Shown one piece after another: positions 159 through 1,230 of a stretch of DNA of 21,685 nucleotides. The notes beneath the pieces are model-generated. The model had not been told where the DNA came from and made no database searches. It saw only the letters and a program-made list of their open reading frames with translations. The first letter of the stretch is position 1, and each line of letters opens with the position of its first letter. This stretch comes from a phage. The translations under genes and the position numbers were made by a program. The stretch lies in NCBI GenBank assembly GCA_037431425.1, contig GCA_037431425.1_4129.5, one strand, 5' to 3'.

Positions 159-186
159 TTGACATAAAACAAAAACATGCTATAAT
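159..186 (+). promoter_or_regulatory. sigma70-type promoter, TTGACA-N16-TGcTATAAT
   Basis: Exact -35 hexamer TTGACA at 159-164, 16-nt spacer, exact -10 TATAAT at 181-186 preceded by TG (extended -10). Lies upstream of the lysozyme-like gene. Confidence 0.55.
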
Positions 187-303
187 ACTTAAACATTTGA
201 AAAGAACGTTTTTGTACTGTAGAAAGTCCGATGAGGCTTTTGCAAAATGGCCTCTTTGCCATCTTTGTGATTGCCCATCTTAACAATCAACAAAGGAGGC
301 GTT

Positions 304-1230
304 TTGAAACAAGCGAAAAAAGCACTGAAAACTAAAATTGCCGTAGGCGTATTAGTTTCATCAGCCCTATTCGCTGCTATTGGATTTTATGGTTTTTCAC
401 GACATGATCATGCACCATCATTAGACGAAAGTCAGGTGCATAATTTAAAACCACAGTTTACTCAAATTCAAAAGCAGGAACTTCCAGTGGTATCAGCACC
501 GAAAGAAGTTCCAAGCAGCGAGAAACATTATACGGTTCAACCTGGTGATAGTTATTATTCTATTGCTAAAAAGTTTAAGCCTAAAAATGTGCAACTTGAA
601 GAGTATGTTATTTTGTTGAAAAATATCAATTTAAATGCTACGCTTCATACTTCTCAGGGTATCTTTATCCCAACAAAAGAGGATTTGAAAAACATATTAT
701 TACCAGATGTGACTGTACTTTTTGATTATACTGATCCAGAAATTGTCAATCACATCAAAGAAGCTGAAGGTTCAATCGAATTCCAATCCAAGAATAAACG
801 ACGTTTACTTGGTGGTCAGGTTGGTGTTTCATATCGTAATTCTAAATTTTATCCATATCGTGATGTAAAAGGTAACTATACGATTGGGTACGGTCACTAC
901 CTTGGTAAGAATGCTTCTGATGCAAGTAAGTACCGTAACGGAATTACCAAATCACAAGCACATAAACTTTTATTGGATGACATGGAACGAATTAATAATG
1001 ATTTAATTTTATTATTGAAGAAGCGAAATGCGACAAACCTTACGGTCGAACAACAACGAATTTTATTTGAGATGGCATTTACTCTAGGAGTTGACAAGTT
1101 AAACACTTTCAATAAACTATGGAAAAGCGTTGAAAATCAAAATTACAACAAGTTCAAAAAAGAAATTAAGAATTCTCTATGGTATCGTCAAGTAGGAAAC
1201 CGTGCAGAATTGTTGTTAAGCTCACTCTAA
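304..1230 (+). CDS. membrane-anchored LysM-domain / T4-lysozyme-like (GH24) protein
   Basis: ORF track 271..1230; I prefer the TTG at 304, which sits 4 nt after AAGGAGG (295-299). N-terminal Gly/Ala/Ser-rich hydrophobic segment (IAVGVLVSSALFAAIGFYGF). LysM-like segment (YTVQPGDSYYSIAKKF...GIFIP). C-terminal domain with the T4 lysozyme signature (DVKGNYTIGYGHY ... EQQRILFEMAFTLG ... WYRQVGNRAELL). Confidence 0.75.
   Translation: MKQAKKALKTKIAVGVLVSSALFAAIGFYGFSRHDHAPSLDESQVHNLKPQFTQIQKQELPVVSAPKEVPSSEKHYTVQPGDSYYSIAKKFKPKNVQLEEYVILLKNINLNATLHTSQGIFIPTKEDLKNILLPDVTVLFDYTDPEIVNHIKEAEGSIEFQSKNKRRLLGGQVGVSYRNSKFYPYRDVKGNYTIGYGHYLGKNASDASKYRNGITKSQAHKLLLDDMERINNDLILLLKKRNATNLTVEQQRILFEMAFTLGVDKLNTFNKLWKSVENQNYNKFKKEIKNSLWYRQVGNRAELLLSSL

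What the first reader, a model, noticed from the sequence alone, without database searches (positions are those of the whole stretch)
159..1230. Strongly promoted membrane-anchored LysM + lysozyme protein with a TTG start
A near-perfect sigma70 promoter (TTGACA-N16-TGcTATAAT) precedes a gene that probably starts at TTG after a full AAGGAGG. The product combines a Gly/Ala/Ser-rich N-terminal hydrophobic segment (like a signal-anchor-release domain), a LysM peptidoglycan-binding module and a T4-lysozyme-like domain. By eye I could not place a Glu at the spacing expected before the conserved DxxxxxT of T4 lysozyme, so catalytic competence is uncertain. This is not a typical cytoplasmic endolysin; it could be a SAR-type endolysin or a non-lytic wall-binding protein.
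Basis: partly seen in the sequence, partly recalled or inferred. Interest (0 to 1): 0.5.

Follow-up and report, generated by a model that had tools for sequence, protein, structure and literature searches.

The report
Membrane-anchored LysM lysozyme with structured leader
This is the exported, membrane-tethered LysM-lysozyme that giant Rak2-like coliphages are predicted to use as their endolysin; the protein design is already described in the literature and its catalytic residues are intact, but its mRNA carries a conserved, structured 5' leader that no database lists.

Summary
A 12/12 sigma70 promoter lies at 159-186, AAGGAGG at 293-299 and the TTG start at 304. The 308-aa product has a cationic tail, a hydrophobic helix, a disordered linker, a LysM domain and a T4-type GH24 lysozyme.

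The window is an Asteriusvirus jumbo coliphage (98.6% to ph0011). The gene is the ortholog of 121Q gp532, CBB_187, GAP32 gp180 and RaK2 gp506. That three-domain predicted endolysin was published in 2017, so the protein part is not new.

E155, D187 and T193 are invariant in 82 homologs. The Glu looked missing because a conserved 23-residue insertion (157-179) separates it from the Asp. A shorter version of this insertion occurs in a wider GH24 subfamily.

SAR release, a stable anchor and a cleaved signal peptide cannot be told apart here.

New here:
- The non-ATG start is conserved (14 TTG, 6 GTG, 1 ATG).
- The 5' leader (192-303) is a single-copy, nucleotide-conserved RNA with two covarying hairpins and an invariant GUAGAAAGUCC.
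- The leader has a predicted anti-SD pairing and no Rfam match.
- No T4-like late promoter precedes the gene.

I read the leader as post-transcriptional control of a toxic exported muramidase; this is inferred, not shown. Interest is modest.

The parts
159..186 (+). Sigma70-type promoter: -35 TTGACA (159-164), 16-nt spacer ending in TGC (extended -10), -10 TATAAT (181-186). Predicted transcription start about 192-194.
   Evidence: the only 12/12 match in the window, 0.06 expected. A promoter at the equivalent position occurs in relatives.
192..303 (+). 5' leader of the lysozyme mRNA, about 112 nt: a conserved structured RNA.
   Evidence: The covariance model hits once per locus in 22 loci. The window hit is 192-265, 45 bits, E about 1e-8. 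The leader is 99.2% identical in phages whose flanks are 83-89% identical, and it occurs at one place per genome. No Rfam family matches.
219..229 (+). GTAGAAAGTCC motif; the AGTCC core is invariant across all relatives and the rest is nearly so.
   Evidence: It is unique in the window.
233..254 (+). Hairpin P2: GAGGCUUUU-GCAA-AAUGGCCUC, with the GCAA tetraloop at 242-245.
   Evidence: This helix covaries in relatives (C-G, A-U and G-C pair types). Overall 86-89% of cells are paired against 76% in shuffles, and 0 of 500 shuffles reach that value.
258..268 (+). Candidate anti-SD segment GCCATCTTTGT. It is complementary to 290-300 (ACAAAGGAGGC; 10 of 11 pairs) and alternatively to the 3' arm of P2 (243-251).
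   Evidence: Read from the sequence. The equivalent 13-bp helix is 93% paired in the GAP32-like clade, but its covariation is not above shuffles.
203..213 (+). 5' segment AGAACGTTTTT. In the minimum-free-energy fold it pairs with GGAGGCGTTTT (295-305), covering the SD and two bases of the start codon.
   Evidence: MFE -35.4 kcal/mol, z = -2.7; probability that the SD is unpaired is 0.24.
293..299 (+). Shine-Dalgarno AAGGAGG, 4 nt before the start codon.
   Evidence: The same SD-N4-TTG geometry occurs in GAP32-like relatives.
304..1230 (+). CDS of 308 aa with a TTG start and a TAA stop at 1228-1230: membrane-anchored LysM-GH24 lysozyme.
   Evidence: phrog_15410 matches full length at 4.8e-156. 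The gene is annotated lysozyme, endolysin or LysM protein in 121Q, PBECO4, ph0011 and others.
337..396 (+). Hydrophobic helix, residues 12-31 (IAVGVLVSSALFAAIGFYGF), after the tail MKQAKKALKTK: a predicted N-in/C-out signal anchor.
   Evidence: The segment is conserved in the family alignment.
397..519 (+). Disordered Pro/Gln/Ser/Glu-rich linker, residues 32-72, with a conserved IQKQ motif.
   Evidence: pLDDT is below 50. I55 and Q56 are nearly invariant.
520..678 (+). LysM domain, residues 73-125, with beta-alpha-alpha-beta topology.
   Evidence: Pfam PF01476 scores 24.0 bits on the isolated region. The model shows strand 74-77, helix 84-91, helix 98-108 and strand 119-122 at pLDDT about 90.
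733..1227 (+). GH24 T4-type lysozyme domain, residues 144-308. Catalytic codons: E155 (766-768), D187 (862-864), T193 (880-882).
772..840 (+). Family-specific 23-residue insertion, residues 157-179 (SIEFQSKNKRRLLGGQVGVSYRN), between the catalytic Glu and Asp. It is predicted as a short helix plus a beta-hairpin.
1247..1579 (+). Downstream HPF/RaiA-family gene, probably co-transcribed. The lysozyme-HPF pairing recurs in distant relatives.

Best explanation
The gene at 304-1230 encodes the Asteriusvirus ortholog of the predicted endolysin of Rak2-like jumbo phages. It is a catalytically competent GH24 muramidase with the triad E155/D187/T193.

Proposed mechanism (inferred):
- The host Sec system exports the protein and an N-terminal helix (residues 12-31) holds it on the inner membrane in N-in/C-out orientation.
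- A flexible linker of about 40 residues and a LysM peptidoglycan-binding domain carry the enzyme toward the wall.
- The enzyme reaches the periplasm without a holin and is toxic when over-made, so its output is throttled at the RNA level.
- A strong host-type (sigma70) promoter is followed by a conserved, structured leader of about 112 nt that can mask the ribosome-binding site, and by a conserved weak start codon (TTG or GTG).
- Lysis would follow once enough enzyme has accumulated, or when it is freed from the membrane on depolarisation, as for SAR endolysins.

Shown here: the domain architecture, the conserved triad, the fold, the promoter, the start codon, and the conservation and covariation of the leader.

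Inferred only: export and topology, the role in lysis, the release mechanism, and what the leader does.
For: - Identity: 98.6% to ph0011, and all 36 matching records are Escherichia or Salmonella jumbo phages of 310-386 kb (ph0011 is classified as Asteriusvirus). The 81 homologs are about 300-320 aa; the named ones are Rak2-like phages and the longest contigs reach 345-366 kb.
- Catalysis: E155-G156, D187 and T193 are invariant. D187 and T193 align with T4L D20 and T26, and E155 with T4L E11. Excising residues 157-179 extends the Pfam match to profile position 1 and raises it from 42.8 to 48.8 bits.
- Fold: the AF2 model has pLDDT above 88 over residues 72-308. It matches T4 lysozyme over 172-175 columns with TM 0.62-0.67 normalised to T4L.
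- Anchor: Kyte-Doolittle 1.99, five Lys before the helix and acidic residues after it. Homologs of about 400 aa carry roughly 100 residues before the helix, so there it must be an internal anchor.
- Literature: CBB_187, GAP32 gp180, 121Q gp532 and RaK2 gp506 are predicted as TM + LysM-like + lysozyme endolysins, with SAR suggested, and induction inhibits E. coli growth (PMC5259590).
- Regulation: the promoter is unique at 12/12. Non-ATG starts occur in 20 of 21 distinct leaders.
- Leader conservation: one hit per locus in 22 loci, with covariation in two helices where 0 of 500 shuffles reach the observed value. The leader is 99.2% identical where flanks are 83-89% identical, and occurs at one place per genome.
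- RBS masking: the SD is predicted paired in the MFE, and the probability that it is unpaired is 0.00-0.16 in most GAP32-like relatives.
Against: - There is no experimental evidence for export, activity or a role in lysis.
- The phage group also encodes a separate soluble 162-aa T4-type lysozyme. It is active in vitro (LysUE1, PMC12805682) and its CBB counterpart was apparently not detected in virions. It could be the real holin-dependent endolysin.
- No holin, pinholin or spanin lies next to the gene.
- The gene sits behind a host-type promoter among early or middle-type genes (HPF, tRNA nucleotidyltransferase, NUDIX, glutaredoxin). It has no T4-like late promoter motif, which is odd timing for an endolysin.
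- RBS masking is not exceptional in the window: the opening cost of 9.1 kcal/mol ranks 5th of 26 genes.
- The anti-SD helix shows no significant covariation.
- Hairpin P1 is degenerate in the window itself.
Confidence: 0.6

Rival explanations
1. It is an active, membrane-tethered wall hydrolase but not the lysis enzyme. It would be an early or middle accessory function, for example local peptidoglycan remodelling to accommodate a very large virion factory or cell enlargement, modulation of the envelope against superinfection, or priming of the wall. The soluble 162-aa T4-type lysozyme would be the true endolysin.
For: - The gene has a sigma70 promoter and no ATAAATA late motif before it, while 4 of the 5 ATAAATA motifs in the window sit just 5' of structural genes.
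- The gene is in a non-structural block and is paired with an HPF gene.
- A separate soluble lysozyme exists, is active in vitro, and its CBB counterpart was apparently not detected in virions.
- Low translation appears to be selected for (TTG or GTG start, structured leader).
Against: - No other lysis cassette has been identified for these phages in the papers read.
- Orthologs are annotated as endolysin, and CBB_187 induction is toxic.
- Three distant relatives do carry ATAAATA just 5' of the leader, so late expression occurs at least there.
- T4 gene e is also transcribed early (from memory).
Confidence: 0.25
2. The N-terminal segment is a cleavable Sec signal peptide, so the mature product is a soluble periplasmic LysM-lysozyme, as for the secreted endolysin Lys44 of phage fOg44.
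For: - The n-region is MKQAKKALKTK, followed by a 12-residue h-region.
- Small residues at AAIG|F (24-27) fit the -3/-1 rule.
- A24, A25 and G30 are at least 90% conserved.
Against: - The hydrophobic stretch runs on past the putative site (FYGF), about 20 residues in all.
- Homologs with about 100 residues before the helix cannot use it as an N-terminal signal peptide.
- No signal-peptide predictor was available.
Confidence: 0.12
3. It is a catalytically dead wall-binding protein.
For: Only the unusual Glu-Asp spacing of 32 residues instead of 9.
Against: - Glu, Asp and Thr are invariant in 82 sequences that are only 35-95% identical.
- GH24 proteins of 149-174 aa with no N-terminal membrane segment carry a shorter form of the same insertion.
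- The modelled fold matches the whole of T4L.
- CBB_187 is toxic when induced.
Confidence: 0.03
4. The conserved leader is not a translational regulator. It could instead be a stabilising 5' structure, an RNase processing site, or a small RNA in its own right that happens to precede the gene.
For: - In the window and in L019, L024 and L036 the predicted promoter places the 5' end right at the start of the conserved element.
- Hairpin P1 lies near that 5' end.
- The RBS-opening cost is unexceptional.
- The anti-SD helix does not covary.
Against: - The element is always directly upstream of this one gene, at a fairly fixed distance (AGTCC lies 77-100 nt before the start).
- Segments complementary to the SD region recur in clades whose primary sequences differ.
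- No conserved U-tract terminator follows P2.
Confidence: 0.3

Closest known systems
CBB_187 / GAP32 gp180 / 121Q gp532 / RaK2 gp506: the predicted endolysin of Rak2-like jumbo phages (Buttimer et al. 2017, PMC5259590)
   Same: These are orthologs (50-95% identity) with the same TM + LysM-like + C-terminal lysozyme architecture. 121Q gp532 shares a leader that is 99.2% identical.
   Different: Nothing essential differs at the protein level. That paper did not report the catalytic residues, the 23-residue insertion, the conserved non-ATG start, the promoter of this gene or the structured leader.
SAR (signal-arrest-release) endolysins: P1 Lyz, phage 21 R21, phiKMV gp45
   Same: Both have an N-terminal hydrophobic helix ahead of a T4-type E/D/T lysozyme, and presumably holin-independent Sec export to a membrane-tethered form (PMC7312051).
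   Different: - The helix is separated from the catalytic domain by about 112 residues (linker, LysM, linker), so R21-style refolding of the SAR helix into the enzyme is implausible.
- The protein has no cysteine, so P1-style disulfide caging is excluded.
- The helix is less Gly/Ala/Ser/Thr-rich across the family (0.35 on average, 0.47 here) than in P1 Lyz and R21 (0.53 and 0.63; those reference sequences are from memory).
- No adjacent pinholin was found.
T4 lysozyme (gene e), including its translational masking in early transcripts
   Same: The fold and the catalytic triad are the same. Like e, the gene is transcribed from an early-type promoter with a leader predicted to occlude the RBS (T4 mechanism from memory: McPheeters et al. 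1986).
   Different: - T4 E is cytoplasmic and needs holin T, whereas this protein has a signal anchor and a LysM domain.
- There are 23 extra residues between the Glu and the Asp.
- No late promoter lies inside the leader, so the T4 way of unmasking does not apply.
Modular Gram-negative endolysins with an N-terminal wall-binding domain (KZ144, EL188)
   Same: A peptidoglycan-binding module lies N-terminal to the catalytic domain, which is rare in phages of Gram-negative hosts (as noted in PMC5259590).
   Different: The binding module here is LysM, not the PG_binding_1 type, and the protein carries a membrane anchor. The catalytic domain is GH24 rather than a lytic transglycosylase (that classification is from memory).
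GH24 subfamily with the motif EG-x3-YQ...G-x-[FY]-[RK]-N-x-KF-YPY-[KR]-D. Members seen here are 149-174-aa proteins with no N-terminal membrane segment; the 887-899-aa hits (P0099, P0115) and the baseplate-hub family phrog_13211 probably belong too.
   Same: The short members share part of the insertion after the catalytic Glu and the conserved Gln (Q161 here). phrog_13211 aligns continuously over residues 127-304 at 3.8e-21. P0099 and P0115 align across the insertion in about 15 fewer residues.
   Different: The Rak2-type enzyme adds about 9 more residues (KRRLLGG...) and the anchor-LysM N-terminus.

Membership tests
GH24 / T4-type phage lysozyme (Pfam PF00959) | Sequence match above the curated threshold | tested here: met
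   40.9 bits against a cutoff of 22.3, rising to 48.8 bits with the insertion excised. T4L chains in the PDB match at E about 3e-8.
GH24 / T4-type phage lysozyme (Pfam PF00959) | T4-lysozyme fold | tested here: met
   The AF2 model has pLDDT above 88 over residues 72-308. Foldseek gives probability 1.0 against T4L over 172-175 columns, with TM 0.62-0.67 normalised to T4L.
GH24 / T4-type phage lysozyme (Pfam PF00959) | Catalytic Glu (T4L E11) | tested here: met
   E155 is invariant in 82 sequences. It aligns with T4L E11-G12 in A7, and the excision test supports this. The residue-level structural superposition was not available.
GH24 / T4-type phage lysozyme (Pfam PF00959) | Asp and Thr of the triad (T4L D20, T26) | tested here: met
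   D187 and T193 are aligned by phmmer and hhalign and are invariant.
GH24 / T4-type phage lysozyme (Pfam PF00959) | Muramidase activity | not testable with these tools
   This needs a zymogram or muropeptide analysis.
LysM peptidoglycan-binding domain (PF01476) | Sequence match above threshold | tested here: met
   21.6 bits (whole protein) and 24.0 bits (isolated region) against a cutoff of 20.9, but only profile positions 1-17 of 43 are matched. Two homologs carry precomputed PF01476 hits.
LysM peptidoglycan-binding domain (PF01476) | Beta-alpha-alpha-beta fold | tested here: met
   The model shows strand 74-77, helix 84-91, helix 98-108 and strand 119-122 at pLDDT about 90. There are weak local Foldseek hits to viral LysM domains.
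SAR endolysin | N-terminal transmembrane-like helix that directs Sec export | tested here: inconclusive
   A helix is present and conserved with positive-inside flanks. Export itself cannot be tested here.
SAR endolysin | Weakly hydrophobic, Gly/Ala/Ser/Thr-rich helix able to leave the bilayer | tested here: inconclusive
   The Gly/Ala/Ser/Thr fraction is 0.47 here and 0.35 on average in the family, against 0.53 and 0.63 for P1 Lyz and R21 (reference sequences from memory).
SAR endolysin | Inactive while tethered, through disulfide caging (P1 type) or through the SAR helix being part of the catalytic fold (R21 type) | tested here: not met
   The protein has no cysteine. The helix is about 112 residues from the catalytic domain, separated by a disordered linker and the LysM domain.
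SAR endolysin | Release and activation on membrane depolarisation; a partner pinholin | not testable with these tools
   No holin-like gene is adjacent. The genome was not searched exhaustively.
T4 gene e-type translational masking | Leader structure of the early transcript occludes the RBS | tested here: inconclusive
   The MFE pairs the SD and start codon (z = -2.7). The probability that the SD is unpaired is 0.24 here and 0.00-0.16 in most GAP32-like relatives. However, the opening cost ranks only 5th of 26 genes.
T4 gene e-type translational masking | A late promoter inside the structure yields an unmasked mRNA | tested here: not met
   There is no ATAAATA in 187-303. Where the motif is present in relatives, it lies upstream of the whole leader.
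Any described RNA family (Rfam 15) | Covariance-model match | tested here: not met
   Nothing approaches a gathering score. The best match is leu-phe_leader at 18 bits against 70, E 0.77.

The most novel reading that the evidence does not exclude
The leader would be a previously undescribed class of phage cis-regulatory RNA: a translational switch or timer built from a chain of mutually exclusive helices.
- The chain is GUAGAAAGUCC : 5' arm of P2 : 3' arm of P2 : anti-SD : SD.
- It would keep the mRNA of a holin-independent, Sec-exported endolysin silent after early, host-polymerase transcription.
- A trans factor, phage or host, that recognises the invariant GUAGAAAGUCC would open it.
- Lysis timing in these giant phages would then be set at the RNA level rather than by a holin.
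- The co-transcribed ribosome-hibernation factor would share the same control.
Probability: 0.2. Interest if true: 0.6.

Novelty: new variant of a known kind. Interest (0 to 1): 0.36.

Why it matters
The protein itself is already predicted in the literature to be the endolysin of Rak2-like jumbo phages, so the finding as written adds little.

Three things do matter.
1. The enzyme is very probably active. The 'missing' Glu is explained by a conserved insertion, which removes the non-lytic reading.
2. These phages carry at least three GH24 lysozymes: this anchored one, a soluble 162-aa enzyme and a baseplate-hub enzyme. No holin was reported in the CBB analysis, and none lies near this gene (one later genome paper lists a holin without detail). 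How a 350-kb phage times lysis is therefore open. An exported LysM-lysozyme transcribed from a host-type promoter is a concrete candidate for a holin-independent route.
3. The leader is a clean, testable candidate for a new regulatory RNA. It is single-copy, more conserved than the coding sequence and supported by covariation, and it controls a toxic gene.

For endolysin engineering, the anchor-less LysM-GH24 module is a natural wall-binding lysin against Gram-negative bacteria.

Tried and rejected
- phmmer and hhalign against T4L would not bridge the insertion; their alignments start at Y183 or P184. This was solved by the excision test and by a MAFFT alignment with intermediate GH24 sequences.
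- I suspected that the 887-aa ORF at 11483-14146 was the baseplate-hub lysozyme paralog suggested by the phrog_13211 hit. It is the tail sheath and shows no similarity.
- I expected the UE-S1 'lysozyme' paper to describe this protein. It describes a different, 162-aa soluble lysozyme.
- I tested whether the conserved blocks TTTCGAAG and GTAGAAAG are the -35 and -10 of a phage-specific promoter. This is rejected: their spacing varies from 18 to 23 nt, the spacer covaries as a hairpin, and the motif is unique per genome. In GAP32-like phages, part of TTCGAAGTAG is the C-terminal codons and stop of the upstream gene.
- A hammerhead-like resemblance (GAAA..GUC..CGAUGAG) is rejected. It is not conserved in relatives and has no Rfam hit.
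- An intrinsic terminator or attenuator at 247-262, flagged by the scan, is rejected. The U-tract is weak and is not conserved after P2 in relatives.
- RBS-opening energy was tried as a discriminator. At 9.1 kcal/mol it ranks 5th of 26 genes, which is not exceptional.
- Covariation of the anti-SD:SD helix was tested. The helix is 93% paired, but this is not above shuffles.
- I looked for transcriptomic timing in the related phage PA5oct. No ortholog is listed.
- I began fetching the whole ph0011 genome to scan it with the RNA model and stopped after 50 kb. I replaced this with a BLAST of the leader, which finds one place per genome.
- No SignalP or TMHMM-type predictor was available, so only hydropathy and composition were computed.
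Full report
WHAT THE WINDOW IS

The first 3 kb is 98.6% identical to Escherichia phage ph0011, classified in Asteriusvirus. It is 83-95% identical to most of the other 35 matching records (121Q, PBECO4 and other Escherichia and Salmonella phages of 310-386 kb; one record falls below 80%). In ph0011 the gene is annotated 'lysozyme'. It lies in a block of non-structural genes: HPF, tRNA nucleotidyltransferase, NUDIX, glutaredoxin, a macro domain protein and peptidyl-tRNA hydrolase. 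Neck, sheath and tube genes follow.

CHECKING THE OBSERVATION

The promoter is as described.
- TTGACA lies at 159-164 and TATAAT at 181-186.
- The 16-nt spacer ends in TGC.
- It is the only 12/12 match in the window, with 0.06 expected.

The start codon is as described.
- AAGGAGG at 293-299 is followed 4 nt later by TTG at 304.
- The upstream in-frame TTG at 271 has no SD.
- In relatives the reading frame opens only about 3 codons before the equivalent TTG or GTG.

The product is as described. Its 308 residues break down as follows:
- residues 1-11, the cationic tail MKQAKKALKTK;
- residues 12-31, a hydrophobic helix (Kyte-Doolittle 1.99; 47% Gly/Ala/Ser/Thr) followed by acidic residues;
- residues 32-72, a linker with low model confidence;
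- residues 73-125, a LysM domain;
- residues 144-308, a Phage_lysozyme domain.

THE CATALYTIC GLUTAMATE

Sequence searches align the protein to T4 lysozyme only from Y183 or P184 onward. They place D187 on D20 and T193 on T26. The position nine residues before D187, where T4L has its Glu, is an Arg.

In an alignment of 82 family members that are 35-95% identical, E155-G156 (in 'KEAEG'), D187 and T193 are invariant. Between G156 and the 'KFYPYRD' strand there is a conserved 23-residue segment, 157-179. Three results identify E155 as the T4L E11 equivalent.
- Excising 157-179 makes the Pfam match extend to profile position 1 and raises it from 42.8 to 48.8 bits.
- The AlphaFold model (82-sequence alignment, pLDDT above 88 for 72-308) puts E155 at the end of helix 145-156. 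It models the insertion as a short helix plus a beta-hairpin. The model aligns with whole T4L over 172-175 columns, with TM 0.62-0.67 normalised to T4L.
- A search of 1.8 billion representatives, followed by an alignment with intermediates, shows a broader GH24 subfamily. Its 149-174-aa members have no N-terminal membrane segment. They carry a shorter version of the insertion (EG-x3-YQ...G-x-FRN-x-KFYPYKD), and their EG aligns with T4L E11-G12.
- The 887-899-aa hits P0099 and P0115 span the insertion region in about 15 fewer residues. The baseplate-hub family phrog_13211 aligns continuously over residues 127-304. Both probably belong to the same subfamily.

The triad is therefore intact, and the 'dead wall-binding protein' reading is very unlikely.

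WHAT IS ALREADY KNOWN

Buttimer et al. 2017 (PMC5259590) describe CBB_187 with homologs GAP32 gp180, 121Q gp532 and RaK2 gp506.
- They call it the predicted endolysin of Rak2-like phages.
- They report exactly this N-terminal TM + LysM-like + C-terminal lysozyme architecture.
- They compare it to SAR endolysins.
- They mention that induction inhibits E. coli growth.

121Q gp532 is the direct ortholog of the window gene. The protein part of the finding is thus already published in silico, and none of the papers I read reports an experimental characterisation.

The same phages also encode two other lysozymes.
- One is a soluble 162-aa T4-type lysozyme. It has been purified and is active in vitro (LysUE1, PMC12805682). 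Its CBB counterpart, CBB_239, was apparently not detected in virions.
- The other is a baseplate-hub lysozyme.

No holin or spanin is reported for CBB. One later genome paper lists 'holin' without detail. Which enzyme is the endolysin is therefore genuinely open.

ANCHOR, SAR OR SIGNAL PEPTIDE

The positive-inside distribution predicts an N-in/C-out topology, with the LysM and lysozyme domains in the periplasm. Features that bear on SAR behaviour:
- The helix is borderline in composition: Gly/Ala/Ser/Thr fraction 0.47 here and 0.35 on average in the family, against 0.53-0.63 for P1 Lyz and R21 (reference sequences from memory).
- The protein has no cysteine, so P1-type disulfide caging is excluded.
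- The helix is about 112 residues from the catalytic domain, so R21-type refolding is implausible.

If the helix is released, tethering alone would have to restrain the enzyme. A linker of about 40 disordered residues plus LysM might let even the tethered enzyme reach the wall; this is my inference.

A signal-peptidase site at AAIG|F is conceivable. However, some homologs have about 100 residues before the helix, which favours an uncleaved anchor. None of this can be settled with the available tools.

THE LEADER

Between the promoter and the SD lie about 112 nt, and they are remarkably conserved.

Conservation:
- Relatives with only about 50% protein identity share GTAGAAAGTCC (the AGTCC core is invariant) and flanking hairpins.
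- Within Asteriusvirus, the leader is 99.2% identical in phages whose surrounding 3 kb is 83-89% identical.
- It occurs at one place per genome.

Structure:
- Two helices were tested: P1, and P2 with its GCAA tetraloop. 86% of cells are paired against 76% in shuffles.
- 10 pairs have changes on both sides against 5.2 in shuffles (0 of 500 shuffles reach this).
- Slid controls give 29-55% paired. A model-fitted alignment gives similar numbers.
- P1 appears with at least eight unrelated stem sequences and loops of 3-7 nt. This rules out a promoter spacer.
- A covariance model finds the element once in each of 22 loci, always before this gene. It finds none in loci of remote GH24 homologs.
- In the window the hit is 192-265, starting exactly at the predicted transcription start. 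P2 and the motif are intact there, but P1 is degenerate.
- No Rfam family matches.

RBS masking:
- Downstream, each clade carries a segment complementary to its own SD region. In the window this is 258-268 against 290-300. In GAP32-like phages it is CCUUAUUAYGCA against UGUGUAAUAAGG. The same segment is also complementary to the 3' arm of P2.
- The invariant motif can pair with the 5' arm of P2. This gives a chain of mutually exclusive helices.
- Folding predicts a paired SD. In the window the MFE has z = -2.7 and the probability that the SD is unpaired is 0.24. In most GAP32-like relatives that probability is 0.00-0.16.

Caveats:
- The window's RBS-opening cost of 9.1 kcal/mol ranks only 5th of 26 genes.
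- The anti-SD helix is conserved (93% paired) but does not covary significantly.

The RNA structure is well supported. Its function as a translational mask is a hypothesis.

START CODON AND TIMING

Among 21 distinct orthologous leaders the start codon is TTG in 14 and GTG in 6. It is ATG in only one, RaK2, where the SD spacing is a poor 11 nt. This suggests selection for weak initiation.

The T4-like late motif ATAAATA was reported for this phage group in PMC5259590. It is depleted in the window (5 copies against 14.7 expected), and 4 of the 5 copies lie just 5' of structural genes. None precedes the lysozyme. Three distant relatives carry it immediately 5' of the leader. Different promoters thus converge on roughly the same RNA 5' end.

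An HPF/RaiA-family gene follows the lysozyme in several clades.

SYNTHESIS

Most likely (confidence about 0.6), this is an active, Sec-exported, membrane-tethered LysM-muramidase that serves as the endolysin, or one endolysin, of these phages. Its toxic output would be limited by a structured leader and a weak start codon.

The main rival (about 0.25) is an early or middle wall-remodelling or envelope function, with the soluble 162-aa lysozyme doing the lysis.

The finding as written is ordinary and already in the literature. The resolved catalytic triad and the undescribed conserved leader give it modest added interest.

Noticed in passing
window 1247-1579 (+); L014 3936-4310; L013 and L031 downstream ORFs: An HPF/RaiA-family (ribosome hibernation factor) gene follows the lysozyme 17 nt after its stop. 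An HPF-like ORF also follows in GAP32-like and SE_PL-like relatives, overlapping the lysozyme stop in L014. A wall hydrolase and a ribosome-silencing factor therefore look like a conserved transcription unit.
   Followed up: partly
window 2537-2722 (+): A 61-aa ORF with one N-terminal transmembrane helix and a Cys-containing C-terminal part. It is not annotated in ph0011 (gap between its CDSs), matches phrog_4189 (unknown function, 9e-18) and is conserved in 121Q-like loci. A small membrane protein 1.3 kb from the lysozyme could be lysis-related, but nothing shows that it is.
   Followed up: partly
window 11424, 14494, 15334, 18262, 18788 (+): ATAAATA, the T4-like late-promoter core reported for CBB and GAP32, is depleted in the window (5 copies against 14.7 expected). 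Four of the five copies lie just 5' of structural genes (tail sheath, tail tube and two ORFs downstream of the tube genes).
   Followed up: partly
window 187-306 compared with 1-3000: The leader is 99.2% identical in about 17 Asteriusvirus genomes whose surrounding 3 kb is only 83-89% identical. The non-coding leader is therefore under stronger constraint than the neighbouring coding sequence.
   Followed up: yes
window 2713-3126 and 3113-3535 (+): Two adjacent, overlapping paralogous ORFs (137 and 140 aa), both matching phrog_20693 of unknown function.
   Followed up: no
window 14536-15222, 15315-16091, 16103-17197 (+): Three consecutive tail-tube-like genes (phrog_4542 twice, then phrog_13438) after the 887-aa tail sheath gene.
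   Followed up: no
window 8398-10392 (+): A 664-aa HNH/homing-endonuclease-like ORF sits between the neck or head-tail adaptor gene (7565-8371) and the dNMP kinase and tail sheath genes.
   Followed up: no
window 11483 (tail sheath start) and 14153-14174: The tail sheath RBS has the highest computed opening cost in the window (19.8 kcal/mol in a -115..+18 context). This probably arises because the real late transcript starts nearer, at the ATAAATA at 11424. A strong bidirectional terminator hairpin follows the sheath gene, and the only weak Rfam hit (Atu_C8, E 0.17, 14092-14188) overlaps it and is likely spurious.
   Followed up: no
protein residues 55-58 (window 466-477) and 123-134 (window 670-705): There are conserved residues outside the recognised domains. 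An IQKQ motif lies in the otherwise variable linker. P123, L128, L133 and P134 are invariant in the LysM-lysozyme connector, which the model places with high confidence. Their function is unknown.
   Followed up: no
homologs P0087 and P0089 (about 400 aa) from the representative search: Metagenomic relatives carry an extra N-terminal, presumably cytoplasmic, domain of about 100 residues before the transmembrane helix. The helix is therefore an internal signal anchor in those proteins.
   Followed up: partly
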